A stretch of DNA of 64,000 bases from a virus (taxonomy: Duplodnaviria; Caudoviricetes). A program made the translations under genes and the position numbers. Position 1 is the first letter of the stretch, and each line of letters opens with the position of its first letter. The notes under the pieces are model-generated. The model saw nothing but the letters and a program-made list of their open reading frames with translations, made no database searches and was not told the origin of the DNA. This document shows positions 5,460 to 22,696 of this stretch, piece after piece. The stretch is taken from IMG/VR virus record IMGVR_UViG_3300025875_000014, positions 3,840-67,839 of that record. The stretch is one strand, 5' to 3'.

Positions 5460-5603
5460 TCACTCATCGCGAGACTCCTGGTCGGGCTGGTCAGCGAGGG
5501 AGAGCAGGGCCTCGTGGCTCATCGCCGCTCGCATGATGTCGTAAGCGTGCACATAACCGCCGGCGCGGTAGCCCTCTAGTGCGATGTCTTCACAGGTCCC
5601 CAC
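5460..5603 (-). CDS. small protein, LADQP(E/D)Q-tail family
   Basis: GTG overlaps the upstream gene end; ends LADQPDQESRDE. Confidence 0.5.
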   Translation of the reverse strand: MGTCEDIALEGYRAGGYVHAYDIMRAAMSHEALLSLADQPDQESRDE

Positions 5604-5907
5604 CGTTCTCGATTCGCTCCGCCTGATCGTGTAGCCACCCCTTGATCGCCCACCCGGTTTGCTTGTCGTCGCCAGCCCACCGCAGCGCCTTGACGGCTCC
5701 CCCGCGCTCCGCAGCCTCGACCCGGCGCAGCAGCTCGGCGCGCTCCGCCAGCAGCCACGCGAGGTCAGCGGGAGCGTTGGCCGCAACTTCGTCGCACGCT
5801 CTGATGTGAGCCCAGAGCGCATCTCCGCGCAACCACTCGCTGCCTTCTTCCGTTGACGCTGCTGCGAGGCGTGCGCTGATCTGCGCGGCGCGGTCGACGT
5901 CAGGCAT
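5590..5907 (-). CDS. hypothetical protein, VKALR...IENGGDL paralogue family
   Basis: shares DRAxQISARLAA and VEAAERxGAVKAL with 7644-8111, and its C-terminus with 6322, 8667 and 10793. Confidence 0.7.
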   Translation of the reverse strand: MPDVDRAAQISARLAAASTEEGSEWLRGDALWAHIRACDEVAANAPADLAWLLAERAELLRRVEAAERGGAVKALRWAGDDKQTGWAIKGWLHDQAERIENGGDL

Positions 5908-6115
5908 CGGGCGTCCAGTCGGTGCAGTCCTCGACCAGGTACGAACCCATCACGGCCTCCCACACAGCTTTTTCCGCGTCACGGTTGCCACGGCGCAGGC
6001 TGGACAGGTCAAGCTCCTGACAGTGGCGGTCGTCGGGACCCGTGCCCCACCAGAGGGCGTCGGCACCCTGCGCGTTCTTCGCTAGGAACAAGTGCGGTTC
6101 GGTACTCTCGGCCAT
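5900..6115 (-). CDS. hypothetical protein
   Basis: AAGGAG RBS upstream. Confidence 0.65.
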   Translation of the reverse strand: MAESTEPHLFLAKNAQGADALWWGTGPDDRHCQELDLSSLRRGNRDAEKAVWEAVMGSYLVEDCTDWTPDA

Positions 6116-6178
6116 GCTGACTCCTTAGTTGGTCGGCCACGCCCCCGGTCAGTTCGACGCTGACGCGGGGGTCTTGCG

Positions 6179-6325
6179 TTACTTGGACTTCTTGACGTAC
6201 GCGGCAGCAGCGCGGCGCACAATCTCGCTGGCAGACTCACCGTTCGCCTTCGCTGCCGCGATGAACTCCTGCCGTAACTGGCGAGGCAGACGGAACGTCG
6301 TCGGCACCATCGGCTCTTCGGTCAC
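6179..6325 (-). CDS. ribbon-helix-helix DNA-binding protein
   Basis: not in ORF track; VTEEPMVPTTFRLPRQLRQEFIAAAKANGESASEIVRRAAAAYVKKSK; GTGA-coupled; followed by hairpin at about 6141-6172. Confidence 0.75.
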   Translation of the reverse strand: MTEEPMVPTTFRLPRQLRQEFIAAAKANGESASEIVRRAAAAYVKKSK

Positions 6326-6603
6326 CAGTCAGCCCCGTTCTCGATCGCGTCGGCGCGGGCTAATGCGTTGAAGTAAGGCCATGTTGCACCGCGTCCCCAG
6401 CAGTCATCGGCAAAGCCACGCAACTCCTTGACGACGGCTGCGCGGGTCCGGTCGGGCTCGGTGAGGACGGTGTGCGCGAGGTCACGGATGCCATCGACTC
6501 CCGGGTCTCCATCTCCGGCGTCGATGTCAGCAAACGCCTCCGCAAGCCATTGCTGCGCCTCCTGTGGGGTGACGATGCGCGGGGCGGTCTGCTCGGTGCT
6601 CAT
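6322..6603 (-). CDS. TEPDR/ADAIENGAD paralogue
   Basis: PRIVTPQEA, LAHTVLTEPDRTRAAVVKELR, ADAIENGADW. Confidence 0.75.
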   Translation of the reverse strand: MSTEQTAPRIVTPQEAQQWLAEAFADIDAGDGDPGVDGIRDLAHTVLTEPDRTRAAVVKELRGFADDCWGRGATWPYFNALARADAIENGADW

Positions 6604-6639
6604 GCCCTCATCATGGCACACCGCCATACGTCAGCGCAA
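6604..6639 (-). promoter_or_regulatory. leaderless sigma70-type promoter
   Basis: TTGCGC-N18-CATGAT-N6-ATG on the minus strand. Confidence 0.5.
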
Positions 6640-6685
6640 TACGTCTAGCCTGCGAGTCTTTGACCGAGAATCTGCATTCGACGGG

Positions 6686-7324
6686 TCAGACGCCGAGCGA
6701 CTTCTCCACAGCCCGCACCGTCGACGCGTACCACTGCTTCCCCGCCTGCGACGTCGGCTCGGCACGCTCGTTCAGCAGCCCCGAGATGTGACGGTACGAC
6801 CGCCCCTCCTGCCGCAGCACCCGGATGAACGTCGCCGTCTCCTCGCTCACCCCAGACGGCCGGCCCAACACCTTGCCCTGAGACTTCGCCACCGCCAGAG
6901 CAGCCTTCGTCCTCGAGGCGATCATCCGCCGCTCCCACTGAGCCAACGCCATGATGATGTTCGCCAGCAGCTCGCCGTTGATCGTGGACGTGTCAATACC
7001 AAGGTCGAGCGCAACGATCGACCAGCCGTTGTTCTGGCCGCGCTCCATCAGCCGAGCGAAGTCGAGCAGGCTACGCGACAAGCGGTCGAGTTTGCTGATG
7101 ACCAGGACGTCAGCCTCGCCAGCGTCGAGCGCCTTCAACATCTTCTCCAGCTCAGGACGCCGCCTCATCGACTTCCCAGACGCGACGTCCACGAAGATCT
7201 CGCCCATGTCCCAATGTCGGTAGGCGACGTCGGCCACGATCTTCTCGCGCTGATCCGCCAGGCCGTAGCCGCGCTCACCCTGGCGGTCTGTAGAGACGCG
7301 GCAGTAGCCGAACGCGGTCGTCAC
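6686..7324 (-). CDS. small serine recombinase (resolvase/invertase family)
   Basis: GYCRVST (catalytic Ser), RRPEL, KLDRLSRS, ERRMIASRT, GRP and a short C-terminal HTH-like tail; 212 aa. Confidence 0.92.
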   Translation of the reverse strand: MTTAFGYCRVSTDRQGERGYGLADQREKIVADVAYRHWDMGEIFVDVASGKSMRRRPELEKMLKALDAGEADVLVISKLDRLSRSLLDFARLMERGQNNGWSIVALDLGIDTSTINGELLANIIMALAQWERRMIASRTKAALAVAKSQGKVLGRPSGVSEETATFIRVLRQEGRSYRHISGLLNERAEPTSQAGKQWYASTVRAVEKSLGV

Positions 7325-7647
7325 TGCTCGGGCTGGTCGGCGAGAAGTTCCTGGATCCTCTGCGCCGCCGCTGCCCGGGTCATAGTGTCGAGGTTTGCGG
7401 TGGGGCCGCTAGCGAGCCAGCGCGACTCTGCTTCAACCCGCGCCACCTTGCCCTGAAGGTCGAGCGCGAGAGTTGCGAGATCGTCAATCAGTGGAGCGAG
7501 GTGTGTTGCTAGCAGTAACGCGTGGTTGTACGAGCCGTTGCCTATCACCACCGGACACCCAGCGGATTCCATCAGCCGCACAAGAACCGTACCTGTCGGA
7601 TCGGTCAGCACCTTGGCGGGGTCGAGGCCGTTCTGCTCGGCGGTCAC
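7321..7647 (-). CDS. hypothetical protein, KVARVEA...LADQPEQ family
   Basis: GTGA-coupled on both sides; motifs shared with 17192 and 18468. Confidence 0.65.
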   Translation of the reverse strand: MTAEQNGLDPAKVLTDPTGTVLVRLMESAGCPVVIGNGSYNHALLLATHLAPLIDDLATLALDLQGKVARVEAESRWLASGPTANLDTMTRAAAAQRIQELLADQPEQ

Positions 7648-8111
7648 AGGGTCGCGCCGTTCTCTTGCGCAGACTGGCAGTCGAGGGCACGAATCGAGGT
7701 TGCGGCGGCGTTGGCTGCTTCCTGGATTAACTCGACGTGCGACTTCGGCTGCCACTTAGGATCGGTGTCGCTCCACCTCTCCGTGTGGTGGTAGCCCTTT
7801 CCTGCGGCGCAGACGGCGGAAAGAGTGCGGTCTACTGCACCCACGCCAGTCAGATCGAAGCCGAAGTAGTAAGCGTGGTCGCGCAACTGCTCCTCTGCGG
7901 GAGACTGCAAAGCGGCGATTTCCTCTGCCAGCGCCTTGACCGCTCCCGCGCGCTCCGCAGCCTCAACTCGGGCCAGCAACTCGGCGAGGGTCGCGTGGTC
8001 GATCATGTAAGCGCAGTCGCCTTCGCTGCCGTCGTGCTCGTGGTACAGGTCGCAGGTCATCGCTGCAAGGCGGGCGCTGATCTGGTCGGCGCGGTCGGTC
8101 TCTGTCATCAT
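7644..8111 (-). CDS. hypothetical protein, paralogue of 5590-5907
   Basis: RBS present; DRADQISARLAA and VEAAERAGAVKAL. Confidence 0.7.
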   Translation of the reverse strand: MMTETDRADQISARLAAMTCDLYHEHDGSEGDCAYMIDHATLAELLARVEAAERAGAVKALAEEIAALQSPAEEQLRDHAYYFGFDLTGVGAVDRTLSAVCAAGKGYHHTERWSDTDPKWQPKSHVELIQEAANAAATSIRALDCQSAQENGATL

Positions 8112-8136
8112 TTCCCCTAGTCAGACCCCATTTGGA

Positions 8137-8190
8137 GGGGTACTTGCTGTACACCTGAACCTAATGTACACCAGTGTTGAATGGGTGTAC
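8137..8190. promoter_or_regulatory. repeated TGTACACC boxes in the divergent control region
   Basis: TGTACACC at 8148 and 8165, inverted GGTGTAC at 8184; locally AT-richer intergenic DNA. Confidence 0.5.
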
Positions 8191-8349
8191 GCGTGAGCAG
8201 AACAACCCGATCGTGTTACCTTGAGTTTTGGCAGAGCGTTCTGAAACACGGACGTGGTCACCACTTCGAGCGGCCCCGTGCCTGTGCCCCACCTACTGGG
8301 GGTGCAGTACCGGGGCCGCTGCGGTTGTCGAGCTAGTTGGCCCAACGTC

Positions 8350-8385
8350 TTGCACGCCGCGTGCATAGAGTCTACAGTCGGGGGC
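8350..8385 (+). promoter_or_regulatory. leaderless sigma70-type promoter
   Basis: TTGCAC-N17-TACAGT-N7-ATG. Confidence 0.7.
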
Positions 8386-8670
8386 ATGACACTTACAACG
8401 CCGGAACTTGACAAGCAGGCGGCGCTCATCAAGAGCGGTCAGCCCCAAGTTGTCGAGGACTTCATCGACTGGCTCAACGCCAATGGCTACTGCATCTCGA
8501 TCAAATGCACCGTGGAGCACGACGGCTACTACTGCGGCGTCTGCCAAGACACCGGGATCTCTCAAGCCGCTGTTTACGACTTCGAGTCGCTCATGGCCGA
8601 GCACTTCGGCATCGACCGGCATAAAGTTGAGGAGGAGCGTACTGAACTCCTCCGTAGCATCCGGGCATGA
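8386..8670 (+). CDS. hypothetical phage protein
   Basis: EDFIDWL...FGIDRHKVEEER pattern; CxxC. Confidence 0.7.
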   Translation: MTLTTPELDKQAALIKSGQPQVVEDFIDWLNANGYCISIKCTVEHDGYYCGVCQDTGISQAAVYDFESLMAEHFGIDRHKVEEERTELLRSIRA

Positions 8671-8894
8671 ACGGTTGGAAGGTTGTTAGCCCCGAGGAAG
8701 CGAAGATCGTGATGTCCGGTCGCTGGGCTAGCAATCTTGCTCATACCGTTGCCACCGAACCAGACCGACTCCGCGCGGAGGTTGTCCGGGCTTTGCGTGA
8801 TCATGCGTTTTTGCTACTACGACGAGCCGAGACTACGGCTTCCGTGACGCTCTATAAAGCAGCCGACGTCATTGAAAACGGGGCCGACTGGTGA
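8667..8894 (+). CDS. TEPDR/ADAIENGAD paralogue
   Basis: LAHTVATEPDR, ADVIENGADW. Confidence 0.75.
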   Translation: MNGWKVVSPEEAKIVMSGRWASNLAHTVATEPDRLRAEVVRALRDHAFLLLRRAETTASVTLYKAADVIENGADW

Positions 8895-9082
8895 CCGACC
8901 TCATCGGCACCCCCGAAGCTGCACGACGCCTCGGCAAGCACCGGTCCACGTTCAGCCGCCTTGTCACCGCCGGCCGCATCACCCCCGTGATCCGAGCAGG
9001 CAACCGAGGACCGATGCTGTTCGACCCCGCTGAGGTCGACCGGCTCGTCGCTGAGATCCTCGCAGCTCGCTGCGCTGACTAG
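8891..9082 (+). CDS. HTH DNA-binding protein (excisionase/HTH_17-like)
   Basis: LIGTPEAARRLGKHRSTFSRLV...LFDPAEV. Confidence 0.8.
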   Translation: MTDLIGTPEAARRLGKHRSTFSRLVTAGRITPVIRAGNRGPMLFDPAEVDRLVAEILAARCAD

Positions 9083-9083
9083 T

Positions 9084-9902
9084 ATGAGCACCGGTCTCCG
9101 AGTCCTCGACGCCTTCTCCTGCAAAGGTGGTGCCGGCCAGGGCTACCTCGACGCAGGCTGCAACGTCGTCGGCGTCGACATCAAGGACTACTCCGACGAG
9201 TACCCGGGCCTGTTCATCCAGGGCGACGCAGTGGCGTTCATCCGCGACTACGGACGCGCGTTCGACCTCGTGCACATCTCCGCGCCGTGCCAGCCGTACA
9301 CGCGCGGCAACGCAATGCGGCGGGTGAACGGCGTTGACCCTCGCTGGCCGACGCTCATCGACGCAGCGCGCAATGCGGCGATCGAGGCCGGTGTGCCGTA
9401 CGTGATCGAGAACGTCGAGGACGCACGCAGTCAACTCCGCAACCCGATCCTGCTGTGCGGGCGCATGTTCGGCCTTGGTGCCACAGACACAGACGGCTGC
9501 CCGCTGATCCTCGACCGGCACCGCCTGTTTGAGTTCGGCAACATGCCGCAGCCTCAGCAGCCCGCTCACCCGAAGCACGTACGCACGTCAGGAATCGGCT
9601 TCTACGGCTACGACGAACTGGAACTCGACGCCGTTGACGCCTCGAAACTCGCGATCAGCGGGCGGCTGCGAATGCTTACCGGCCAGCCGCACGTCGCGGG
9701 CGTGTACGGCGGAGCTCGACGTGACAAGTGGGAAGCAAAGTACGTGCGTCACGGCGGCTACGTACCCAAGGACATCCGCGTCTTGCAGGGACTGCTCGGC
9801 GTCACGCACATCACGACCGAGCACGAACTCTTCGAGGCGATCCCGCCGGCCTACACGCGCTGGGTGGTCGAGGCTGTCTCAAAAGGAGCAACTCGTGACT
9901 AA
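9084..9902 (+). CDS. C5-cytosine DNA methyltransferase-like protein
   Basis: motif I LDAFSCKGG, motif IV SAPCQ, motif VI IENV, C-terminal EAIPPAY. Confidence 0.8.
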   Translation: MSTGLRVLDAFSCKGGAGQGYLDAGCNVVGVDIKDYSDEYPGLFIQGDAVAFIRDYGRAFDLVHISAPCQPYTRGNAMRRVNGVDPRWPTLIDAARNAAIEAGVPYVIENVEDARSQLRNPILLCGRMFGLGATDTDGCPLILDRHRLFEFGNMPQPQQPAHPKHVRTSGIGFYGYDELELDAVDASKLAISGRLRMLTGQPHVAGVYGGARRDKWEAKYVRHGGYVPKDIRVLQGLLGVTHITTEHELFEAIPPAYTRWVVEAVSKGATRD

Positions 9903-10077
9903 AGATGCGCGCACCGTTGGGGTCGAAGAAGCACGCGCCATCGCAGAGACTTTTGACCGAGACCTATACGGCAGCATCATTCCGGACCTCGCTCGCACGA
10001 TAGTGGTTCAGGCCGAGCAGATGGCTGCCATCCATGTCGTAGAGTGCTCATGCAAGTGCTCTCAAGCGCGCACTTGA
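9895..10077 (+). CDS. degenerate TEPDR-family member
   Basis: AAGGAG RBS; RTVGVEEA...DLARTIV resembles RIVTPQEA...DLAHTV. Confidence 0.55.
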   Translation: MTKDARTVGVEEARAIAETFDRDLYGSIIPDLARTIVVQAEQMAAIHVVECSCKCSQART

Positions 10078-10081
10078 CCGC

Positions 10082-10144
10082 AAATGCCGCTCCTTCGCGA
10101 GTGACGTCCCCTGCCCAGAGGACTCGCGGAGGGGCGGTGCATTT
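10082..10144 (+). other. long imperfect RNA hairpin
   Basis: AAATGCCGCTCCTTCGCGAGT pairs with ACTCGCGGAGGGGCGGTGCATTT. Confidence 0.6.
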
Positions 10145-10262
10145 CTGGCTGGCAACTAGCGGACATGGCATGTTCCTGCACCCGGAGTCAGCAGACAACC
10201 GCCCTGCCTGACCCCTAGCGTCATATCCAGGTCGGAACCGCCGGCCACCTAAGGAGACCCCC

Positions 10263-10367
10263 GTGAAGACTCGCCTCATCGCCCTCGCCGCCACCACCGG
10301 TGTCAGCCTGCTCGTCTACGGCACCGAGATCGCGTCGGCTGCCGGACGCGCATCCGGTCGCGCCTGA
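10263..10367 (+). CDS. 34-aa putative secreted peptide precursor
   Basis: TAAGGAG RBS; MKTRLIALAATTGVSLLVYGTEIASA-AGRASGRA has n/h/c regions and an A-x-A site; not in ORF track. Confidence 0.55.
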   Translation: MKTRLIALAATTGVSLLVYGTEIASAAGRASGRA

Positions 10368-10375
10368 GCTAGACG

Positions 10376-10406
10376 AGGGCGGGCCTGCTGCGGCAGGTCC
10401 GCCCCT
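10376..10406 (+). terminator. GC hairpin after the peptide ORF
   Basis: AGGGCGGGCCTGC-TGCG-GCAGGTCCGCCCCT. Confidence 0.65.
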
Positions 10407-10483
10407 TGCGCTACCTTGAGAGCGCCACATCCCCCACGCCTCTCCACGATGCGCACTTGGGGGATTTTCCTTGCCCAAACGGG

Positions 10484-10520
10484 TAGACAAGGCGAGGGAG
10501 ATGTGGGTACTGTTGTCCAC
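10484..10520 (+). promoter_or_regulatory. leaderless promoter of the early operon
   Basis: TAGACA-N18-TACTGT-N7-ATG. Confidence 0.65.
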
Positions 10521-10799
10521 ATGAGCACACCGAACGATTGGCGCATCGTCACCCCGCAGGAGGCAGATGCACTGTTGAAGGCATCCGAGACGGATCGCAC
10601 GGGACGATCTACGTGGCTGCTGCGTGACCAGGCCGAGCGTTATGCCCACACGGTTGCCACCGAGCCCGAGCGGATCGCCGCAGCCAAGCGCGCAGCCGTC
10701 GTCAAGGCGCTGCGAGACCTTGAGGATTCTTTCGACGGTCGCGACCAGGTTTGGATCAGCAGTAAGGCTGACGCAATCGAGCACGGTGCGGAATGGTGA
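10521..10799 (+). CDS. TEPDR/ADAIENGAD paralogue
   Basis: RIVTPQEA, AHTVATEPER, AAVVKALRD, ADAIEHGAEW. Confidence 0.75.
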   Translation: MSTPNDWRIVTPQEADALLKASETDRTGRSTWLLRDQAERYAHTVATEPERIAAAKRAAVVKALRDLEDSFDGRDQVWISSKADAIEHGAEW

Positions 10800-11161
10800 G
10801 CAATGAGTGCACGCGCTGCGGAGGGTTCGGTTTTGAGCCGCCCGACGACGATGACCCCGATGAGCGCACTTATCCCTGCCAGAAGTGCGGTGAACTCAAC
10901 CCCGATCGTCTGACCGTGGACAGCAGCAACGAACCGCGCATCGCCACCCCGCAGGAGGCGCAGGTGCACAAGACTTGGCCGCATCTAGTCTCCACCGAAG
11001 ATGTCGGTGCGCTCGCCCACACGGTCGCCACCGAGCCTGACCGGACCCGCGCAGCCGTCGTCAAGGCGCTGCGAGACGCCGCTCCCGAGTCACCAAACTT
11101 TTCGGCGGAGCGTTGGCTGATCTTGCGCGCAGACGCGATCGAGAACGGGGCCGACCTCTGA
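10793..11161 (+). CDS. TEPDR/ADAIENGAD paralogue with N-terminal Zn ribbon
   Basis: CTRC...CQKC, then PRIATPQEA, LAHTVATEPDRTRAAVVKALRD, ADAIENGADL. Confidence 0.75.
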   Translation: MVSNECTRCGGFGFEPPDDDDPDERTYPCQKCGELNPDRLTVDSSNEPRIATPQEAQVHKTWPHLVSTEDVGALAHTVATEPDRTRAAVVKALRDAAPESPNFSAERWLILRADAIENGADL

Positions 11162-11361
11162 TGGCCGAGTTCCTGACCATCGGCGACGCGGCCCGCATCA
11201 CCGGCTACAGCATCAAGACCCTCCGCCGCTGGTCCGACACCGACAAGCTCCCCGTCCGCCGCAGCCCCAGCAACCAGCGCATGTTCCGCCGTGAGGACCT
11301 GAACGCGCTCCCCAAGCGAGCCGCGCAGGAACTGTCAGACCAGACGCCTAGCGTCACCTAG
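11161..11361 (+). CDS. MerR-like HTH DNA-binding protein
   Basis: LTIGDAARITGYSIKTLRRW...NQRMF. Confidence 0.85.
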   Translation: MAEFLTIGDAARITGYSIKTLRRWSDTDKLPVRRSPSNQRMFRREDLNALPKRAAQELSDQTPSVT

Positions 11362-11495
11362 ACGGCGACCTAGCGGTGTGCATCCCCCAGCACCATCCCC
11401 GCCGCTAGGTCGGTCCCAAACCAACCAGCCCCGCACCCTGCACTCAGCCAGAGCACACAGGACACGGGGCCAGCAACGAAAGGCAAGGCTAGCAA

Positions 11496-12689: not shown

Positions 12690-12697
12690 GCAACGGC

Positions 12698-16212: not shown

Positions 16213-16406
16213 ACCTCCACGACGACCGCGTTCGGCAGATCCGAGAGCGCATCGAAGCCGGCCGACCCGTCCCCGGAGACGCTGAGTACCTACTCGCCGC
16301 CCTCGACCACGCCGTCAGCGGAGACCCAGAGAACTACCGGTTCGCGCTGCTGTGCGAGAGCGTGGGGGAGACCGACGACGACCAGGAAGGCCCGGACTGT
16401 GGTTAA
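16209..16406 (+). CDS. hypothetical protein
   Basis: ATGA-coupled. Confidence 0.55.
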   Translation: MNLHDDRVRQIRERIEAGRPVPGDAEYLLAALDHAVSGDPENYRFALLCESVGETDDDQEGPDCG

Positions 16407-16911
16407 GACGTCGCATGACCTAACGCTTTATCTGACTGATCCGCGCGTTCTCCGTCGTTTCTGGGCCAAGGTCGACCGTGGGGGACCAGACGAATGCTGG
16501 CTCTGGAACAGCTACCGCAAGCCGCCGTACAACTACGGGCAGTTCCTTCTCGGCAGGAGCAAGTTCGTCACTGCTTCTCGTTTTAGCTTGGCGCTGAAGA
16601 TGGGCGGATTGCCCGAAGGCGTGCAGGCATGCCACTCCTGCGACAACCCGCCCTGCTGCAACCCACACCACTTGTTCGTTGGTACTCAGTTGGAAAACAA
16701 CCTGGACTGCATCAACAAGGGCCGTGGAAACAAGAGTCACGGAGAGGCGCATCGGGATGCGAGACTGACAACGGAGGTTGTCCGCATGCTTCGAGAGCTG
16801 CCTCACACATATGCAGTACAAAAAGAAATGGCAGCGGTCTACGGAGTGAGTTCTAACGCCATCTATAGGGCGCAAGTTGGACGGACGTGGAAGCACGTGA
16901 CGGCAGCGTGA
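16399..16911 (+). CDS. HNH homing endonuclease with C-terminal HTH
   Basis: CWLW, ACHSCDNPPCCNPHHLFVGT, ENNLD. Confidence 0.9.
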   Translation: MVKTSHDLTLYLTDPRVLRRFWAKVDRGGPDECWLWNSYRKPPYNYGQFLLGRSKFVTASRFSLALKMGGLPEGVQACHSCDNPPCCNPHHLFVGTQLENNLDCINKGRGNKSHGEAHRDARLTTEVVRMLRELPHTYAVQKEMAAVYGVSSNAIYRAQVGRTWKHVTAA

Positions 16912-17195
16912 CCGCTCGCAGGCCAGCGCCTTATCCCGAGTTGGGCGCGATGCCGGGGACTTGGGCCGACGACGCAGCTTGCGCCGGGAGCGCAGTTCCG
17001 GATGCTTGGTTCGCCACCGACAGCAAGAACGCCGAAACCGCCTACGCCAAATCCGTGTGCGCCCTCTGCCCGGTGACTGCGGCTTGTTTGCAGTTCGCGC
17101 TCGAGATCGGACCCAGCCAAGCACAGGGCATCTGGGGAAAGACCACGGAAGAACAGCGCAGCTACATGCGCAAGAAGAGGAGGCCCGCAGCATGA
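16908..17195 (+). CDS. whiB: WhiB-family transcription factor
   Basis: four Cys (CAG...AKSVCALCPV...CL) and GIWG turn. Confidence 0.9.
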   Translation: MTARRPAPYPELGAMPGTWADDAACAGSAVPDAWFATDSKNAETAYAKSVCALCPVTAACLQFALEIGPSQAQGIWGKTTEEQRSYMRKKRRPAA

Positions 17196-17701
17196 ACACC
17201 GAACCTATCGACCCCGCCTCCGTCATGGCCGCGCACCCGCAGCGGATTGTGGCTGGACACGACTGGTGTGATACCTGCGGCGACTTAGGGCTGAATGAGT
17301 TCGGCAAGACAGGATGTTGCGAGCCGTACCGCTTGGCTGAGGCACTGGCCGCCGGGCAGGCCAAGGTGGCGCGCGTTGAGGCGCAGCGTGATGACTGGCG
17401 CATTCGTTCGGAAGATGACTATGTAGGCCGCCCGTTGGTTGACGCGCCTGACGATGTCCGCCGGTACTACCGCAGCGTGTTGGCCGCCGCCGCCGATCGA
17501 CTCGACTCCGCCCTCGCTGACCAGCCCGAGCAAGAGTCGACGCGGTGCAGCGGGACTCTCGGCTCGCGCCCGTCCTGGATGAGTGAGGGCCAGTACGACC
17601 CGTGCCGGTGCAAGCTCCCTGGCGGACACTCTGGCGAGCACGCGTGTGAGCACACCGATCCAGGCCTCGGCCTCGCTGACCAGCCCGAGCGTGACGCATG
17701 A
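17192..17701 (+). CDS. hypothetical protein, IDPA...CEPYRLAEAL...LADQPEQ family
   Basis: motifs shared with 18468; LADQPE occurs twice. Confidence 0.7.
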   Translation: MNTEPIDPASVMAAHPQRIVAGHDWCDTCGDLGLNEFGKTGCCEPYRLAEALAAGQAKVARVEAQRDDWRIRSEDDYVGRPLVDAPDDVRRYYRSVLAAAADRLDSALADQPEQESTRCSGTLGSRPSWMSEGQYDPCRCKLPGGHSGEHACEHTDPGLGLADQPERDA

Positions 17702-18150
17702 CCGTCCTCCAGCTCACCGACGAGCAGATCATGTGGATCCGCAGCGACTACGCGGCCGGTCTGTCGCAGCACAAGATCGCCGTCAAGTACGGCATTGGTG
17801 AACGCGTCGTCCGCCGCCACGTTGAGGACATCCCCAGCCCAAGACAACGGCAGGACGTCGTCCGCAAGTGCCCCGCCTGCCCGATCCTCTTCTACGACCG
17901 CAAACGTGACCGCGTCTACTGCTCCGGCGCCTGTCGACTTCGCCATCAAAAGCAGGAAGCCGCGCACCGCATGGACGAGTTCAAGTGGATCGCCGGCACC
18001 GACACGTGGGCCAACATCGCCGAACGCGTCGGACTGTCCAGCGTCAAGTCTCTCCGCGAGTGGCTGCGTACGTACGGCGAGATCGCGTGGGCCGAGCGGG
18101 TCGTGGACGAGACCAGCGAGCGACCACGGCAGGGACGCTGGGCCGCATGA
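17698..18150 (+). CDS. HTH + Zn-ribbon + HTH putative regulator
   Basis: SQHKIAVKYGIG, CPAC...YCSGAC, WANIAERVG. Confidence 0.65.
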   Translation: MTVLQLTDEQIMWIRSDYAAGLSQHKIAVKYGIGERVVRRHVEDIPSPRQRQDVVRKCPACPILFYDRKRDRVYCSGACRLRHQKQEAAHRMDEFKWIAGTDTWANIAERVGLSSVKSLREWLRTYGEIAWAERVVDETSERPRQGRWAA

Positions 18151-18180
18151 CCGGCAACAGCGGGATGCCCGTGTGCAAGA

Positions 18181-18471
18181 ATGACCGATAGAAGAACGGC
18201 CCCGGCTGGCGCGGCGAACGCCAGGACCCGGGGCCTTGCCCTCAACGAGTACAAGTCGGAGGACTTAGCCACCATGTTAGACGAACCAACGCCTACGAAC
18301 GACCAGTGGGCCCACGAGGTCATCGCACAGTCGCAAAGCTGCCCGCTGTGCTTCGGAGCAGCCGTCGGTCACCACACCCGAAAGAACGGTCGAGTCATGC
18401 TCGCCACCTACGAGTGCGGCATGACGCACCGGTGGAACCTGACGTGGGTCCTCGCGCAGGTGATGGCATGA
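18181..18471 (+). CDS. Zn-ribbon hypothetical protein
   Basis: CPLC...YECGMTHRW; true start may be downstream. Confidence 0.55.
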   Translation: MTDRRTAPAGAANARTRGLALNEYKSEDLATMLDEPTPTNDQWAHEVIAQSQSCPLCFGAAVGHHTRKNGRVMLATYECGMTHRWNLTWVLAQVMA

Positions 18472-18872
18472 GCGACATCGACCCCGCCATCGTCATGGCC
18501 GCGCACGCGAACGAGCAGGACCCGATGTACCGGTGGTGGTACTGCCCTGCCTGCGGGAAGGCTGGTATTCCTGACCGGTGCGAGCCGTACCGCTTGGCTG
18601 AGGCGCTGGCTGCCACGCTCAGGGAGCGCGACGAGTGGGAAACGGCATCCCGTCAACGCGGCGGCCGCTACCTCAGGCGAGCGAAGGACGCTGAGGTAGC
18701 GCTGGCCGCCGAGCAGGCCAAGGTGGCGCGGATGTTGGCTGTGCACGCCCGCTACTTCGACCTCGACGGCCGCCCAGGATTCGACGACTGCGAACCCGAA
18801 CCGGAAGACGTGTGGCGCTACGACCGCGACCTCCGCGCCGCCGTCGCTGACCAGACCGAGCAGGCCACCTGA
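18468..18872 (+). CDS. hypothetical protein, IDPA/CEPYRLAEAL/ADQ family
   Basis: paralogue of 17192. Confidence 0.7.
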   Translation: MSDIDPAIVMAAHANEQDPMYRWWYCPACGKAGIPDRCEPYRLAEALAATLRERDEWETASRQRGGRYLRRAKDAEVALAAEQAKVARMLAVHARYFDLDGRPGFDDCEPEPEDVWRYDRDLRAAVADQTEQAT

Positions 18873-19717
18873 TGGCCCGCAAGCGCCCCGCGCCGTACGT
18901 TCCGCTGTCGGTCTACTACGCCGACGACGAGGCCATCATGGAAGCCGGCGAGGACGCCGAGCTGATGTACGTCCGCATGCTCGCCTATGCCGGACGGACC
19001 CCAACGACCGAGGGCTACGTCCCCAAGCGTGTGTGCCTGACCCGTCTCGGTATCGCCGTTCGTCCGGAACTGGGTCCGGAAACGAGTCCGGAAAGCCGAC
19101 TGGAACGGTTAACGGACTCCGGCCTGATTGCGATCGAGGGTGACGGATACCGCCTGGTGTCGTGGCTGAAGTGGAACCGTAGCGTCGAGGAGATGAACCG
19201 CGAGCAGAAGCAGGACCGCGAGCGTAAGGTGCCTCTGACTAGGCGTGCTCCGGAATCGGGTCCGGAAGACGTACCGGAAACGAGTCCGGAAACGGCACCG
19301 GAGTCGGGGCCGTTTCCAAGCGGCAGTACAGAAGCAGAAGAGAAGAGAATTAAAGACATGTCCGCTCGTCGCGGACGGTTCGATGAGTTTTGGTCGATCT
19401 ACCCAAAACGCGGCAAGCACTCCAACCCCAAGGAAGCTGCTCGGCAGAAGTGGAATGATCTCGTCAAGACGGTCGATCCCGAAGCGATCATCACTTCTGC
19501 TCGCGTGCTGGCAAAGACGCGTGAGGGCGAGGACCCCCAGCACACGCCTCAGGCGATCACGTGGCTACGGCAGAAGCGCTGGCAGGATGATGCGCCGATT
19601 GAGGTCGAGGCAGGCCGCCATCTTGTCGCGGTGCAGACCGGTCCGTCGCGCGATGCGCAGCTCCGGTACGAGGACGCGCAGCAGCAGGCGCCCGATGCAG
19701 GAGCACTGCCATGGTGA
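18872..19717 (+). CDS. replication initiator (lambda O/DnaD-like position)
   Basis: upstream of DnaB; internal iteron-like repeats; FDEFWSIYPKR...A...WL C-terminal domain. Confidence 0.8.
   Translation: MARKRPAPYVPLSVYYADDEAIMEAGEDAELMYVRMLAYAGRTPTTEGYVPKRVCLTRLGIAVRPELGPETSPESRLERLTDSGLIAIEGDGYRLVSWLKWNRSVEEMNREQKQDRERKVPLTRRAPESGPEDVPETSPETAPESGPFPSGSTEAEEKRIKDMSARRGRFDEFWSIYPKRGKHSNPKEAARQKWNDLVKTVDPEAIITSARVLAKTREGEDPQHTPQAITWLRQKRWQDDAPIEVEAGRHLVAVQTGPSRDAQLRYEDAQQQAPDAGALPW
19062..19303. repeat. 12-bp-period (T/A)CCGGA(A/G) iterons, putative origin
   Basis: 3 copies at 19063, 19075, 19087 and 5 copies at 19249, 19261, 19273, 19285, 19297. Confidence 0.7.
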
Positions 19718-20994
19718 GCGCCGACGAGTACGAACGCTCCCTGCTCGGTGCCGTCCTTCGCGGTTACCCAGATGTACCCGCACTGAGCCGCATCGTCTCG
19801 GGTGCCGACTTCGGCAGGTCGGGACACGGGGCGATCTGGGATGCATGCCTGACTGTCCACGCCACGGGCGACAAGGTCGAGCCCATGGCCGTCATGGAGG
19901 TTATGGGCAAGACCGCCCACCGCCTTCCGGGCGGCGCGGCCTACCTGACCGAGTTGGACGCAGACGTCATCGTCAAGGCACCGCACTACGCCAGCAAGGT
20001 CCGCGAGTTAGCGATCCGCCGGCAGGTGCAGGGCCTGGGCATTCGCTGCCAGCAAATGCTGGAGGATCCTGACCTGGCCGTTGACGATCTTTTGTCACGG
20101 ATCCGCAAGTGGGCCGACGAGATCCAGGCAGAGCAGCGCACGGGAGCCACGACGGTCGACGCCGCGCTCGAGCAGGTGCTGCGCATCGCTGAGGATGGCG
20201 CTGCGATCGGCGCTTCCTCGCCGTGGCTGGACTTGACTGAGGCGCTGGGCGGTGGCTGGTTTGCTGGCTTGTACGTCGTCGCGGCTCGACCGGGGGTGGG
20301 TAAGACGCTGATGCTTGAAAACATCAGCACTGACATGGCTCGGCGTCACCACAAGTTCGTCGCCTTCGCCTCGCTTGAGATGACCGCCGAAGAGATCACG
20401 CAACGGACCCTCGCGTACACGGCGAAGGTTGAGCTGTCGAAGATCCGCGCTGGTGGGTCGAAGTTGTCACCGCAGAACTGGGAGGCGATCCAGGAAGCCT
20501 CGGGCCGAATGGTGGGGACGCGGGTCAGGTATGATGACCGCCCTTCGCAGACCATCGATCACATCCGGGCTTTCGCTTGGGAAACGCGGCAGGAAGCTCT
20601 GCGTGCGGGTTCCGAACTGGGCATGGTCTGCGTCGACTACCTGCAGTTCATGGAGGCGCGCGATCGCCGACTGTCTCGTCAGCAGCAGGTCGGCGACATG
20701 TCGCGTGGCCTGAAGCGGCTGTCAAAGGAACTCGGCGTACCGGTTGTTGCTGGTGCTCAGCTCAACCGTGGTGGCTCCCAGCGTGCCGACGGGACACCGC
20801 TGTTGACTGACCTGCGCGAGGCCGGAGACATCGAGCAGGACGCGGATGTGGTGATGCTCATGCACGAAGAGGTCGATGCAGAGAAGACGCCGACGGGGAC
20901 GATCGACGTTCACTTGGCGAAGAACCGGCACGGCGCTCAGAAGCACGTTAAGTTTCAGCGCTGGGGCCACTACTCACGAATGGAAGCAGCATGA
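19711..20994 (+). CDS. dnaB: DnaB-like replicative helicase
   Basis: Walker A AARPGVGKT, SLEM, VDYLQ, QLNR, DLREAGDIEQDADVV, AKNRHG. Confidence 0.95.
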   Translation: MVSADEYERSLLGAVLRGYPDVPALSRIVSGADFGRSGHGAIWDACLTVHATGDKVEPMAVMEVMGKTAHRLPGGAAYLTELDADVIVKAPHYASKVRELAIRRQVQGLGIRCQQMLEDPDLAVDDLLSRIRKWADEIQAEQRTGATTVDAALEQVLRIAEDGAAIGASSPWLDLTEALGGGWFAGLYVVAARPGVGKTLMLENISTDMARRHHKFVAFASLEMTAEEITQRTLAYTAKVELSKIRAGGSKLSPQNWEAIQEASGRMVGTRVRYDDRPSQTIDHIRAFAWETRQEALRAGSELGMVCVDYLQFMEARDRRLSRQQQVGDMSRGLKRLSKELGVPVVAGAQLNRGGSQRADGTPLLTDLREAGDIEQDADVVMLMHEEVDAEKTPTGTIDVHLAKNRHGAQKHVKFQRWGHYSRMEAA

Positions 20995-21185
20995 GCGACG
21001 TCGTTCACGTTCGCCGCACGATCGTCGTCGAGTACGACGTGGGCCGCGACGAGTACGGGAGTCTGACCGATGACGAGATCGTGGCGTACGAAACGCTCGG
21101 CCACAACGAGGATGGCGGTTGGCGGATCATCGATTACGACGACGGCAACGTGAAGTTGAGCAGCGCCGAGGTGATGTTCCGGTGA
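20991..21185 (+). CDS. hypothetical protein
   Basis: coupled ORF. Confidence 0.55.
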   Translation: MSDVVHVRRTIVVEYDVGRDEYGSLTDDEIVAYETLGHNEDGGWRIIDYDDGNVKLSSAEVMFR

Positions 21186-21382
21186 GCGTCGCGTGGGACG
21201 GTAAAACGCTGAACGATTGGGAGAACTCACAGCTCTCGTATGGGTCTTTGATGGCTATTCGGAATCGCCGCAAGACCGACAAATTGCATGGTTACACGAT
21301 CGAAGTAGAAGGCAGTCCCTACAACGTAGGTTGCGGATTGCCTTGGGCTTGGCACGATTGGGAGGGTCGGTGTCCGAAATGA
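21182..21382 (+). CDS. hypothetical protein
   Basis: GTGA-coupled. Confidence 0.5.
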   Translation: MSVAWDGKTLNDWENSQLSYGSLMAIRNRRKTDKLHGYTIEVEGSPYNVGCGLPWAWHDWEGRCPK

Positions 21383-21594
21383 GCGCGACTGAATTCTGGC
21401 GGAACTACTGCCCTCACTTCATGCCGGGACGCAAGCGCATCGCCTCGAATCGGCTGGCTGCGGCAATCGAGGCACGTGGACGCAGTTACCGAATCTGGTT
21501 CGTCTGGGGGCACTTGATGGTTGTTACCGAGTCTCGCGAGAAAGCCGAGCCCGAGCATGTGGCCTACGTGCGTCACGATCTGGGCGTCCGGTGA
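21379..21594 (+). CDS. hypothetical protein
   Basis: ATGA-coupled. Confidence 0.5.
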   Translation: MSATEFWRNYCPHFMPGRKRIASNRLAAAIEARGRSYRIWFVWGHLMVVTESREKAEPEHVAYVRHDLGVR

Positions 21595-21758
21595 CTCGAG
21601 CGCGTCAGGTGGCTGTCCACACGCCCCGCTTTCAGAATGGGATGGGCGGGAAGTTCATCGTCTGCTCGTGTGACGATTTTCGGACGGGTGTCGCGGATCA
21701 CGCGTACATCCGCGAGCAGTTCGCCGACCACCTGCGGCTCGTAGGTGGGGCGAAGTGA
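21591..21758 (+). CDS. hypothetical protein
   Basis: GTGA-coupled; not in ORF track. Confidence 0.45.
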   Translation: MTRARQVAVHTPRFQNGMGGKFIVCSCDDFRTGVADHAYIREQFADHLRLVGGAK

Positions 21759-21925
21759 CCGTCAGTCTCGGATACGTTTTCGGCTACACGCTCATCCAGT
21801 TGGTCGCAATGGTCATCGTCATGATTCCGGCGTACTACCTCGGCCGTCAGTCTGCCCAGCTCGAGGCAGAGAAGAAGCGCGACGAAGAGTGGGATCGAAA
21901 GCACGACCGAGAGGCGGCGAAGTGA
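21755..21925 (+). CDS. small membrane protein
   Basis: TM followed by charged tail; not in ORF track. Confidence 0.55.
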   Translation: MTVSLGYVFGYTLIQLVAMVIVMIPAYYLGRQSAQLEAEKKRDEEWDRKHDREAAK

Positions 21926-22110
21926 TGACGTGCGTGGAATGCGGGGTCGTGCTGCCCGAGTTGTACGCCGACGTCTTGGCGCACCTGCGGGACGAGCACG
22001 GGCTGGAGCCTGAGCGATGGCCTGATGGCGGGCTGATGACTTACCAGGAGCTTGAGCCTGCGGACTTCCTGCCGCGCGACCCCTACGAGCGATCGGTGGA
22101 CATGTCATGA
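21925..22110 (+). CDS. C2H2-like Zn-finger protein
   Basis: CVEC-x12-HLRDEH. Confidence 0.6.
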   Translation: MTCVECGVVLPELYADVLAHLRDEHGLEPERWPDGGLMTYQELEPADFLPRDPYERSVDMS

Positions 22111-22457
22111 GTGAAGCGTCCGATCGAATTAGTCAGATCAAGGCACGGCTAGAGGCATCGAGAAACTGGCAAGGCATCATCTTCACCAATAAAAACCTGA
22201 TTGAGCACGGGCCCCACGATCTTCTGTGGCTAATCACCGAACTTGAGCGGGCACGGGCTGCGAGCGAGGGCGTGGACATGCTGATCGCTGCGGCTGATCG
22301 GCGAGGGGCGGTCAAGGCGCTGCGCGAGGCTGCGCGAGAGTCACCGCAAGCTAAAGGTGCTCTCACGAAACGCGCCGACGAGATTGAGTATCCCGAAACG
22401 TTTGGGTACCACGTTGAGGGCGGACGTGCCTTCGACGGACAAGGGCGTCCCCTGTGA
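22107..22457 (+). CDS. paralogue with DRIxQIKARL...GAVKALRE motifs
   Basis: related to 5590 and 7644. Confidence 0.65.
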   Translation: MSEASDRISQIKARLEASRNWQGIIFTNKNLIEHGPHDLLWLITELERARAASEGVDMLIAAADRRGAVKALREAARESPQAKGALTKRADEIEYPETFGYHVEGGRAFDGQGRPL

Positions 22458-22696
22458 CCGACCAGCATTTCGACTCGCAGATGCAGCGGACAGACCTTTA
22501 CGCCGACACGTGTGTTACATCTGAGGCTATTGGCGTCCGAACTAAGACCGAAAGCCGCGACGTTGCTGCGGTCGCCCACCGCCAGTGGATGAGCCGAGAG
22601 CAGTTGGCGGCGATGGTTCAGGTTGGTCAGGCTCTGTTGAGCCGGTGGACGTTAGAGGACCGCGTCGACGCCATCGAGAGTGGAGCCGATCTGTGA
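22454..22696 (+). CDS. hypothetical protein ending DAIESGADL
   Basis: family C-terminal motif. Confidence 0.6.
   Translation: MTDQHFDSQMQRTDLYADTCVTSEAIGVRTKTESRDVAAVAHRQWMSREQLAAMVQVGQALLSRWTLEDRVDAIESGADL

What the first reader, a model, noticed from the sequence alone, without database searches (positions are those of the whole stretch)
5590..22696. Recurrent cassette: TEPDR/ADAIENGAD paralogue coupled to a small DNA-binding gene
Seen: six ORFs (5590, 6322, 8667, 10521, 10793, 22454) end in (A)D(A/V)IE(N/H/S)GA(D/E)(W/L) or close variants. Four also share RIVTPQEA-like / HTV(A/L)TEP(D/E)R / VVKALR blocks around unrelated middles. A 30-bp exact repeat CGCGCAGCCGTCGTCAAGGCGCTGCGAGAC lies at 10689 and 11048. 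Three members overlap the start codon of a different small regulator: RHH (6325), HTH (8891) and MerR-HTH (11161). All three cassettes are at or near the start of leaderless transcripts. Inference: a modular effector-regulator (TA-like or anti-defence) system diversified by recombination at conserved blocks.
Basis: partly seen in the sequence, partly recalled or inferred. Interest (0 to 1): 0.72.

Follow-up and report, generated by a model that had tools for sequence, protein, structure and literature searches.

The report
Mosaic small-protein family in actinophage
An uncultured high-GC phage carries eight copies of a previously unnamed family of small helical proteins built from three short conserved blocks around swappable middles; their tie to neighbouring DNA-binding genes is real in this genome but not shown to be functional, and an orphan antitoxin-type RNA sits beside one cluster.

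Summary
The sequence observation holds and is larger than reported. There are eight paralogues, not six. The 30-bp exact repeat is confirmed, as are the three overlapping RHH/HTH_17/MerR genes.

The proteins form one mosaic family. It has about 100 unnamed relatives among 1.84 billion representatives. No Pfam, PHROG, NCBIfam or PADLOC family fits. A relative of the family gives a weak, sub-threshold match to Ead/Ea22.

- The conserved blocks are under protein-level selection.
- Database chimeras show module exchange at the blocks.
- The models are all-helical, with no specific fold match.

Start-codon overlap is generic here: 32 of 38 early junctions overlap. All three class-B units are followed by small DNA-binding genes. 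In the two other loci with DNA, direct adjacency fails, though an RHH homologue lies about 360 nt downstream in one. Nothing supports a toxin-antitoxin reading, and the leaderless claim is unsupported.

In passing: an orphan abiF antitoxin-type RNA lies 55 nt upstream of the tandem pair. It is identical over 43 nt to actinobacterial AbiF leaders, and the record holds no AbiF gene.

The parts
5590..5907 (-). Family member, class A (N-block DRxxQIxARLAA, long central helix, AVKALR, C-terminal IENGGDL)
   Evidence: A profile E 3.7e-39; model pLDDT 92, helices 4-17, 28-79, 86-100
6322..6627 (-). Family member, class B (PRIVTPQEAQ / HTVLTEPDRTRAAVVKELR / ADAIENGADW). The start is probably the second ATG, at 6603
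   Evidence: B profile E 2.8e-31; model pLDDT 80, four helices
7644..8111 (-). Family member, class A, with a long insert matching phrog_6530. First gene of the leftward early operon
   Evidence: (phrog_6530 E 1.3e-18, residues 62-143)
8667..8894 (+). Family member, class B, minimal form (75 aa). Its codons have diverged from the other copies
   Evidence: 10-13 synonymous against 3-5 amino-acid-changing codons of 21 versus the four copies other than w6322; 8 against 6 versus w6322
10521..10799 (+). Family member, class B, first of a tandem pair. Its C-terminal half is shared with a class-A database protein
10793..11161 (+). Family member, class B, with an N-terminal CxxC...CxxC extension
   Evidence: (weak ECs_2282_CxxC, E 0.02)
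22107..22457 (+). Family member, class-A-like, with a divergent C-terminus (…GQGRPL)
   Evidence: the last 50 residues are near-identical to P0119, whose N-half differs
22454..22696 (+). Divergent member that keeps mainly the C-terminal block (DAIESGADL)
   Evidence: (all-family profile E 4e-18)
6179..6325 (-). Ribbon-helix-helix gene overlapping the stop of 6322 (GTGA)
   Evidence: A homologue lies about 360 nt downstream of the class-B gene in L005
8891..9082 (+). HTH_17 (excisionase/MerR-like) gene overlapping the stop of 8667 (GTGA)
   Evidence: PADLOC mad1, E 5e-9
11161..11361 (+). MerR/HTH_17 gene overlapping the stop of 10793 by one base. It closes the three-gene unit 10521-11361
   Evidence: homologue P0127 on a 1542-nt contig, the same length as the contig of class-B P0007
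10689..10718 (+). 30-bp exact repeat, copy 1 (codes RAAVVKALRD)
11048..11077 (+). 30-bp exact repeat, copy 2
10430..10465 (+). Orphan abiF-type RNA hairpin (Rfam RF03085), with a conserved -10-like TACCTT at 10412-10417 and a U tract after it
   Evidence: (41.3 bits, gathering score 37)
11366..11412 (+). Strong hairpin directly after the MerR-like gene; a possible terminator of the three-gene unit (no U tract)
   Evidence: -29.2 kcal/mol, z -4.07

Best explanation
The eight ORFs are real genes of one mosaic family of small, all-helical early phage proteins. Each protein is built on a short conserved scaffold. It has an N-cap (PRIVTPQEAQ, or DRxxQIxARLAA), a central helix (…TEPDRTRAAVVKALR, or …AERAGAVKALR) and a C-terminal helix (…ADAIENGADL/W). 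The last two pack as an alpha-hairpin. Between the blocks lie unrelated inserts. Shown: the family has grown by duplication within this phage, and by recombination or gene conversion inside the conserved blocks, which act as in-frame splice points for modules. Inferred: the scaffold is a folding or oligomerisation core, the variable inserts are the working surfaces, and the proteins are non-essential early accessory factors that bind host or phage partners (host takeover, counter-defence or lysis-lysogeny tuning), as is thought for the Ead/Ea22-like proteins, their closest named kin. The small RHH/HTH genes behind the class-B copies are most likely transcriptional regulators of the same short early units, or independent excisionase-type early regulators. 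They are probably not binding partners or antitoxins.
For: One family, eight genes. The alignment with TPGPW-bearing database relatives links classes A and B column by column.

Protein-level selection: in the 21-codon central block the diverged copy 8667 differs from four of the other five copies (w10793, L005, L007, w10521) by 10-13 synonymous-only codons against 3-5 amino-acid-changing codons; against w6322 the split is 8 against 6.

Mosaicism:
- 10521 (class B) and P0116 (class A) share only the last 39 residues, at 67% identity.
- 22107 and P0119 share a near-identical C-half behind different N-halves.
- P0063 joins the N-module of the window's 18306-18872 gene to a class-B C-half.
- Fusions exist with DUF6221 (P0055) and with duplicated or inserted blocks (P0043, P0058, P0072).
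- DNA identity is confined to block islands, with a 30-bp exact tract in the adjacent pair.
- Several database contigs seem to carry 2-4 members, judged by equal contig lengths.

Fold: class B gives four helices, confident for residues 58-96. Class A gives pLDDT 92 with a 52-residue central helix.

Location: both divergent early operons, next to a resolvase, a methyltransferase, recombination and replication genes.

Kinship with Ead/Ea22: relative P0120 hits PF13935 at E 0.0015, below the cut-off.
Against: No function is shown. No fold or family match tells what the proteins bind. The Ead/Ea22 link is one sub-threshold hit in one relative; none of the window's members hits it. The related 49.9-kb phage record holds only one member, so the eightfold expansion is not general.

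All three class-B units here are followed by a small DNA-binding gene. By my own arithmetic, post hoc, that has a chance of about 0.001, taking 4-5 such genes among 38 non-family early genes. A functional pairing therefore cannot be dismissed.

Only three independent DNA contexts were available.
Confidence: 0.55

Rival explanations
1. Acr-Aca-like anti-defence units. The family proteins are counter-defence effectors, and each short transcription unit is closed by its own small DNA-binding autoregulator (RHH, HTH_17 or MerR-like). That regulator controls the unit's promoter and does not bind the effector.
For: All three class-B units (3 of 3) are followed by a small DNA-binding gene. The unit 10521-10793-11161 has a promoter-like TAGACA-18-TACTGT just upstream (by eye) and a strong hairpin after it. 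In L005 the class-B gene heads a short rightward unit that ends in a homologous RHH. Neighbours are an orphan abiF antitoxin-type RNA and a DNA methyltransferase. The MerR-like gene probably accompanies a class-B gene on another 1542-nt contig.
Against: No anti-defence activity or family match is known. No anti-defence library was on hand. No operator repeats were found beyond weak 5-bp arms seen by eye. In L007 the member is followed by a 284-aa unknown protein inside a longer operon. Class-A members are not followed by regulators. In known acr-aca loci the regulator is the conserved part and the effector varies (recalled); here it is the reverse.
Confidence: 0.2
2. One reading: toxin-antitoxin-like pairs in which the family protein is a toxin or effector neutralised by the overlapping DNA-binding protein.
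For: Gene order (small protein, then overlapping small RHH/HTH gene) resembles reversed-order type II modules. The within-genome association is 3 of 3 for class B.
Against: No toxin family or fold matches. The regulators are minimal DNA-binding domains of 48-66 aa, with no extra neutralising domain. Three unrelated regulator families pair with one 'toxin' family. Overlap is generic. Five of the eight members have no such partner. Direct adjacency is absent in L005 and L007.
Confidence: 0.07
3. The conserved blocks are kept for nucleic-acid reasons and the proteins matter little. The C-terminal codons (GAGAACGGGG, 7-8 nt before the next start, and a last codon that forms GTGA) would serve as ribosome-binding and coupling signals. 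The central block would serve as a recombination linker.
For: All 8 members end ...TGA, and 7 of 8 have a downstream in-frame start at -7, -4 or -1. The ENG codons resemble a Shine-Dalgarno stretch at the right distance (by eye). The rare codon GCA is kept in 5 of 6 central blocks, and DNA is near-identical across three contigs.
Against: The 8667 copy keeps the amino acids while changing most synonymous positions. The glycine third base varies (G, T, C, A). The blocks are conserved as amino acids in about 100 proteins. 5590 ends in the motif with no gene behind it.
Confidence: 0.08

Closest known systems
Ead/Ea22-like proteins (Pfam PF13935; lambda Ea22, P22 Ead)
   Same: Both are small early-region phage proteins of high sequence diversity built from modules. 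Lambda Ea22 has a short N-domain, a coiled coil and a variable C-domain, and favours lysogeny (abstracts of PMC10834534 and PMC7093339). Class A here has a long central helix. Relatives carry an ...ARLAAATPGPW... insert, and one of them, P0120, hits PF13935 at E 0.0015.
   Different: No window member matches PF13935, and the hit in the relative is below Pfam's cut-off. The defining blocks here (TEPDRTRAAVVKALR, ADAIENGADL/W) belong to no named family. The window copies lack the TPGPW insert. No mixed alpha-beta C-domain is predicted.
acr-aca operons (anti-CRISPR gene followed by a small HTH/RHH autoregulator)
   Same: A small protein gene or genes is followed by a small DNA-binding gene in a short early unit. 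This fits 10521-11361 and the L005 unit best.
   Different: Architecture only; no activity or homology is shown. Here the upstream protein family is the conserved part and the regulators differ. This comparison rests on recalled knowledge of acr-aca loci.
Type II toxin-antitoxin modules
   Same: Two small overlapping genes, one of them an RHH/HTH protein.
   Different: No toxin family or fold, no neutralising domain on the regulators, and pairing not conserved in 2 of 2 other loci.
abiF RNA / AbiF (Abi_2) type III toxin-antitoxin, and RNA antitoxin mimics such as pseudo-ToxI of phage PhiTE (for the RNA at 10430-10465 only)
   Same: The hairpin passes Rfam's gathering score. It is identical over 43 nt to leaders that precede Abi_2 genes in Actinomycetota. 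abiF-motif RNA neutralises AbiF by direct binding (abstract of PMC12373285). Phages escape ToxIN with RNA antitoxin mimics (title and abstract of PMC3475682 in listing; passage in PMC13064643).
   Different: No Abi_2 gene lies in the phage record. There is a single motif, where RCd22 has two. Activity against AbiF has not been tested.

Membership tests
Ead/Ea22-like (PF13935) | Match to the Pfam model above its gathering score | tested here: not met
   None of the 8 window members matches at E<=0.1; two class-A members rescanned at E<=10 also do not. Of the 7 relatives scanned (most with the TPGPW insert; P0120) scores 19.5 bits against a cut-off of 27.
Ead/Ea22-like (PF13935) | Tripartite build: short N-domain, coiled coil, variable C-domain; tetramer | tested here: inconclusive
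   The class-A model has a 52-residue central helix flanked by shorter helices. The oligomeric state was not tested. The build of Ea22 is taken from the abstract of PMC10834534.
Type II toxin-antitoxin pair | One partner belongs to a known toxin family or fold | tested here: not met
   No Pfam, PHROG, NCBIfam or PADLOC toxin family. Fold searches give only generic helical hairpins.
Type II toxin-antitoxin pair | The two genes stay adjacent across unrelated genomes | tested here: inconclusive
   3 of 3 class-B units in the window; probably one more by equal contig length of 1542 nt. 0 of 2 are directly adjacent in L005 and L007, but an RHH homologue lies about 360 nt downstream in L005. DNA for the other ~100 relatives could not be fetched.
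Type II toxin-antitoxin pair | Toxicity of one partner and rescue by the other | not testable with these tools
   Needs expression in a laboratory host.
acr-aca-type anti-defence operon | Short unit with its own promoter, small effector gene(s) and a terminal HTH/RHH autoregulator | tested here: inconclusive
   10521-11361 has a promoter-like site by eye and a hairpin after it. The consensus scan found no site at the cassettes. No operator was identified.
acr-aca-type anti-defence operon | Inhibition of a host defence system | not testable with these tools
   No anti-defence profile library was on hand; a bench test is needed.
RHH_1 / HTH_17 / MerR DNA-binding domains (the three neighbours) | Pfam match above the gathering score | tested here: met
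   RHH_1 22.1 bits (cut-off 20.5); HTH_17 28.7 (27); MerR 37.8 (28.2) and HTH_17 36.0 (27).
abiF RNA (Rfam RF03085) | Covariance-model score at or above the gathering score, with all stem pairs standard | tested here: met
   41.3 bits against 37; no non-standard pair is flagged. There were 0 hits in 14 control genomes.
abiF RNA (Rfam RF03085) | Lies directly upstream of an Abi_2 (AbiF) gene | tested here: not met
   No PF07751 match at E<=1 in the 67.8-kb record. The next gene is class-B 10521. In bacterial loci, 15 of 22 first downstream ORFs tested are Abi_2.

The most novel reading that the evidence does not exclude
The stretch from about 8.2 to 11.4 kb is a counter-defence island. It would hold a DNA methyltransferase, a stand-alone abiF antitoxin RNA that disarms the host's AbiF abortive-infection nuclease, and recombination-diversified scaffold proteins (this family) whose swappable inserts each target a different host factor, with each short unit shut off by its own small DNA-binding autoregulator. 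The conserved blocks would then be a built-in cassette-exchange system for evolving new counter-defence specificities.
Probability: 0.15. Interest if true: 0.75.

Novelty: new variant of a known kind. Interest (0 to 1): 0.5.

Why it matters
Most early genes of actinobacterial phages have no assigned function. This family gives a clear, testable example of how such genes diversify. Three short protein blocks are kept under purifying selection and serve as in-frame recombination points, so inserts and whole halves move between genes and between gene families. If the inserts are host-binding surfaces, the family would be a natural library of phage-host interaction modules.

The side observation may matter more widely. 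An antitoxin-type abiF RNA without its toxin sits in this phage, and the same holds in most of the viral contigs I sampled. That points to a common RNA-decoy route of escape from AbiF abortive infection. In the library I searched I found only one report of an abiF sRNA in a cyanophage, and its role there was left open.

Tried and rejected
- **Complex prediction.** 8667-8894 with 8891-9082, both as alignments: no verdict. It counts neither for nor against binding.
- **Fold searches.** Both models against PDB (Foldseek), BFVD and the wide VIA search gave only generic two-helix hairpins or nothing. A profile against PDB sequences gave nothing below E 0.26.
- **ESM Atlas.** Scores of 0.83-0.88, no usable family. 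One neighbouring cluster carries PF27050 in 22% of its members. PF27050 is also on record for P0069, but my Pfam copy gave no such hit.
- **Cultured-phage collection.** No match by DNA or by protein with four queries.
- **One genome per species (185,579).** 34 pattern hits, none a relative.
- **Back-translated C-terminal motif in viral contigs.** Four loci: one already known and three chance hits with no profile match.
- **All-against-all test of module shuffling.** Mosaicism therefore rests on four chosen pairs and on alignments, not on a systematic count.
- **HEPN-like reading of class B.** Suggested by the abiF RNA just upstream. Rejected by eye: no conserved R-x4-6-H motif in the alignment.
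- **ORF 9895-10077 as a ninth member.** 4.6 bits only, so not counted.
- **Leaderless transcripts.** They cannot be tested without RNA ends. I did not use the sequencing-run tools.
- **Earlier notes of this scan.** None bore on the family.

Full report
**What the window is**

The window is bases 3840-67839 of a 67.8-kb IMG/VR virus record, linear and about 84% complete. GC is 61-67%. It carries a WhiB gene, a DnaB-type helicase, a YqaJ-type recombinase, HNH endonucleases and a small serine recombinase. It is therefore an uncultured phage of a high-GC actinobacterium.

The finding lies in the early region. This region consists of a leftward operon starting at 8111 and a rightward operon starting after about 8220.

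**Checking the observation**

All six ORFs exist and end as described. Two further members were missed: 7644-8111(-) and 22107-22457(+). A profile search of the whole record finds these eight genes and nothing else.

The members fall into two classes and one divergent copy.
- Class B comprises 6322, 8667, 10521 and 10793. These share PRIVTPQEAQ, (A)HTVATEPDRTRAAVVKALR and ADAIENGADW/L, with 24 invariant columns among the four.
- Class A comprises 5590, 7644 and 22107. These share DRxxQIxARLAA, …DLAWLL…RVEAAERxGAVKALR and a C-terminal NGxxL.
- 22454 keeps mainly the C-terminal block.

The 30-mer occurs exactly twice, against 0 matches in 100 shuffles. The three downstream genes are RHH_1, HTH_17 and MerR/HTH_17, all above Pfam's cut-offs. 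Their starts overlap the upstream stop.

**What the overlap is worth**

In my own ORF list of the rightward early operon, 32 of 38 junctions have the next start overlapping the previous stop. Without the five junctions behind family members the figure is 27 of 33. The list is ORF-based and did not come from a gene caller. Overlap with the next gene therefore says nothing special about these pairs.

All eight members end in …(CTG/TGG/CTC) TGA. Seven of the eight have an in-frame start in that junction.

**What follows each member**

| Member | Next gene |
|---|---|
| 6322 | RHH |
| 8667 | HTH_17 |
| 10521 | paralogue 10793 |
| 10793 | MerR-like |
| 22107 | paralogue 22454 |
| 22454 | 92-aa cysteine-rich protein with no Pfam family |
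| 7644 | 108-aa unknown, then the resolvase |
| 5590 | nothing (a 5-codon frame) |

All three class-B units are thus followed by a small DNA-binding gene. Pfam recognises only four or five small DNA-binding genes among about 38 non-family early genes: RHH, HTH_17, MerR-like, WhiB and a weak HTH_28. The chance of three out of three is therefore about 0.001 by my own arithmetic. That figure is post hoc and rests on tiny numbers.

**Relatives**

The class-B profile finds 85 proteins in the 5.8-billion set, four of them the window's own. It finds 105 representatives among 1.84 billion, 79 of them at E<=1e-10. None carries a name.

The class-A profile finds 12 proteins, three of them the window's own. 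Nothing was found in 50,697 cultured-phage records or in one genome per 185,579 species. No Pfam, PHROG, NCBIfam or PADLOC family fits. The one exception is that the insert of 7644 is phrog_6530.

The family is real, narrow and confined to uncultured phages.

**One family, built from modules**

Database relatives bridge the two classes. Many class-A relatives carry …ARLAAATPGPW… followed by …LIANAPADLAWLLAER…. In P0105, P0103 and P0069 this aligns with the class-B …DLAHTVATEPDR… block. P0064 and P0090 carry both N-caps.

Chosen pairs show exchange of halves.
- 10521 (class B) and P0116 (class A) share only the last 39 residues, at 67% identity.
- 22107 and P0119 have near-identical C-halves behind different N-halves.
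- 5590 and P0064 share the scaffold around different inserts.
- P0063 joins the N-module of the window's 18306-18872 gene to a class-B C-half.
- P0055 is a DUF6221 fusion.
- P0043, P0058 and P0072 have the central block duplicated around inserted segments.

At the DNA level, the four class-B genes align only in three islands.

**Protein or DNA constraint?**

In the 21-codon central block, copy 8667 differs from four of the other five copies by 10-13 codons that change only synonymously. Only 3-5 codons change the amino acid. Against 6322 the split is 8 against 6. So the blocks are kept as protein.

The other copies, including those on two other contigs (L005, L007), are nearly identical in DNA, with 14-17 of 21 codons identical. 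The adjacent pair shares 30 exact bases. This fits recent exchange or conversion.

The codons for E-N-G (GAGAACGGG) lie 7-8 nt before the next start and resemble a ribosome-binding stretch. However, the third base of the glycine codon varies, and 5590 keeps the motif with no gene behind it. I rate a purely nucleic-acid explanation as unlikely.

**Fold**

- Class B (alignment of 43 sequences): pLDDT 80, helices 21-33, 43-56, 58-78 and 82-96, confident only from residue 58.
- Class A (16 sequences): pLDDT 92, helices 4-17, 28-79 and 86-100.

Foldseek and the wide VIA search return only generic helical hairpins. The best Z is 7.8 over 43 residues, which is within the range the tool describes as common for helical models. 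The conserved core is an alpha-hairpin, and the fold gives no function.

**Coupling outside this genome**

Only two other DNA contexts could be fetched.
- In L005 (a 49.9-kb phage record with a single member) the class-B gene is followed, again with GTGA, by a 66-aa protein of no family. About 360 nt further on, a homologue of the window's RHH closes the short rightward unit (39% identity over 38 residues, E 9e-7).
- In L007 the member is followed by a 284-aa unknown protein.
- A homologue of the MerR-like gene (P0127) comes from a 1542-nt contig. That is the same length as the contig of class-B P0007, so the two are probably on the same contig. P0007 resembles 10793 even in its variable parts, so this may be plain synteny.

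Coupling is thus loosely conserved at best. The complex prediction gave no verdict and is not used.

**Leaderless claim**

- The consensus scan found no promoter at a cassette.
- By eye, 10521 has TAGACA-18-TACTGT ending 7 nt before its ATG, which would fit a leaderless start.
- 8667 is the second gene, behind 8386-8670, whose ATG is preceded by a purine-rich (GGGGG) stretch.
- Relatives begin 3-6 residues before PRIV, which points to the second ATG of 6322.
- The claim is untested.

**Closest known**

The nearest named kin are the Ead/Ea22-like proteins. One relative (P0120) hits PF13935 at E 0.0015, below the cut-off; no window member does. Lambda Ea22 is an early, modular, coiled-coil protein that favours lysogeny (abstracts only).

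The gene order recalls acr-aca operons (recalled knowledge). It recalls type II toxin-antitoxin pairs less well, and their defining features are not met.

**An unexpected neighbour**

The 443-nt gap before 10521 holds three features.
- A Shine-Dalgarno-led 34-codon hydrophobic ORF (10263-10367).
- A strong hairpin (10377-10405).
- A match to Rfam's abiF RNA at 10430-10465: 41.3 bits against a gathering score of 37, with no hit in 14 control genomes.

In five of the Actinomycetota loci the motif and its U tract are identical to the phage's over 43 nt: Microlunatus (L020), Arsenicicoccus (L082), Microbacterium (L085), Friedmanniella (L086) and an Actinomycetes MAG (L089). An upstream -10-like element is also conserved.

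There the first long downstream ORF is Abi_2 in 8 of 15 actinobacterial loci and in 7 of 7 others. My crude ORF pick missed at least one more. The phage record has no Abi_2 gene, and homology ends right after the U tract.

abiF-motif RNA neutralises the AbiF nuclease by direct binding (abstract of PMC12373285; passages of PMC12737573). The phage RNA is therefore most simply an antitoxin decoy against the host's AbiF. This is analogous to the RNA antitoxin mimics by which phages escape ToxIN (passage in PMC13064643).

**abiF motifs in other viral contigs**

- 18 of the 20 loci I checked pass the gathering score.
- 0 of 32 downstream ORFs tested are Abi_2.
- By my count from the table, only 7 of 72 loci with enough sequence have any ORF of 250 aa or more starting within 260 nt.
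- Several motifs sit just behind tRNA genes.

The loci were chosen by the loop pattern, and only the nearest ORF was tested, so this is a sample and not a census.

In print, five searches of the held library (and the passages read) turned up an abiF sRNA noted in cyanophage S-CREM1 and three other phage genomes, with its role called unconfirmed (passages of PMC9964418 and PMC12197685). I met no statement that orphan abiF RNAs are a common phage counter-defence. Subscription papers, including the 2025 AbiF/Cas13 study cited in those reviews, were not seen.

The related phage record G001 has no abiF motif. The RNA is therefore not tied to the protein family.

**Verdict**

The 'effector-regulator / TA-like' half is not, although an operon-level link to small regulators remains possible.

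Function is unknown. My best reading is a scaffold-plus-insert family of early accessory proteins. This is a new variant within the loose world of Ead/Ea22-like mosaic phage proteins, and of moderate interest. The orphan abiF RNA beside it is the more directly testable lead.

Noticed in passing
window 10405-10480 (+); abiF match 10430-10465: Orphan abiF antitoxin-type RNA (Rfam RF03085, 41.3 bits) with a conserved -10-like element and a U tract. It is identical over 43 nt to leaders of Abi_2 genes in several Actinomycetota. No Abi_2 gene lies in the phage record. Likely a decoy against host AbiF.
   Followed up: partly
loci L136-L254 (viral contigs) and L014 onward (genomes): The abiF loop pattern is in at least 119 viral contigs. 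18 of 20 checked pass Rfam's score, and 0 of 32 nearest downstream ORFs are Abi_2, against 15 of 22 in bacterial loci. Several viral copies sit directly behind tRNA genes (L146, L151, L152).
   Followed up: partly
window 10263-10367 (+) and 10377-10405: A 34-codon hydrophobic ORF with an AAGGAG ribosome-binding site and a GTG start, followed by a strong GC hairpin, just upstream of the abiF RNA. It could be a small membrane peptide gene.
   Followed up: no
window 7321-7647 (-), about 17192-17701 (+), about 18468-18872 (+): A second mosaic family. The genes end in (L/V)ADQ(P/T)E(Q/R)…, again overlapping the next start (repeat family D2). Two of them share an N-module (…IMAAH…CEPYRLAEAL…, 94% identical over 36 nt). 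Database protein P0063 fuses that N-module to a class-B C-half.
   Followed up: partly
window 11161-11361 (+) and 6686-7324 (-): The MerR-like HTH and the 212-aa resolvase both hit PHROG 6620 ('transposase'), at complementary parts of the profile (positions 2-52 and 60-192). A homologue of the HTH (P0129) is named 'putative resolvase' by its source. Together they resemble the two halves of an IS607-type serine recombinase.
   Followed up: no
window 8891-9082 and 11161-11361: Both HTH_17 proteins match the PADLOC model mad1 of the MADS defence system (E 5e-9 and 1e-10). This is probably shared HTH_17 ancestry only.
   Followed up: no
window 9895-10077 (+): A 60-aa ORF with a strong AAGGAG site, whose GTG overlaps the methyltransferase stop by 8 nt. 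It shows a faint resemblance to the N-half of class B (4.6 bits) and is not counted as a member.
   Followed up: partly
window 8218-8226 and 10412-10420: The string TACCTTGAG occurs both before the abiF RNA and in the divergent early control region. Both may be -10 elements of early promoters. A 22-nt-arm inverted repeat lies at 8269-8320 in the 5' leader of the rightward operon.
   Followed up: no
last 30 nt of every family gene, e.g. window 8865-8894: The codons for I-E-N-G (…GAGAACGGGG…) lie 7-8 nt before the next gene's start and look like a ribosome-binding stretch. The final Leu or Trp codon plus TGA forms the GTGA overlap in 6 of 8 members.
   Followed up: partly
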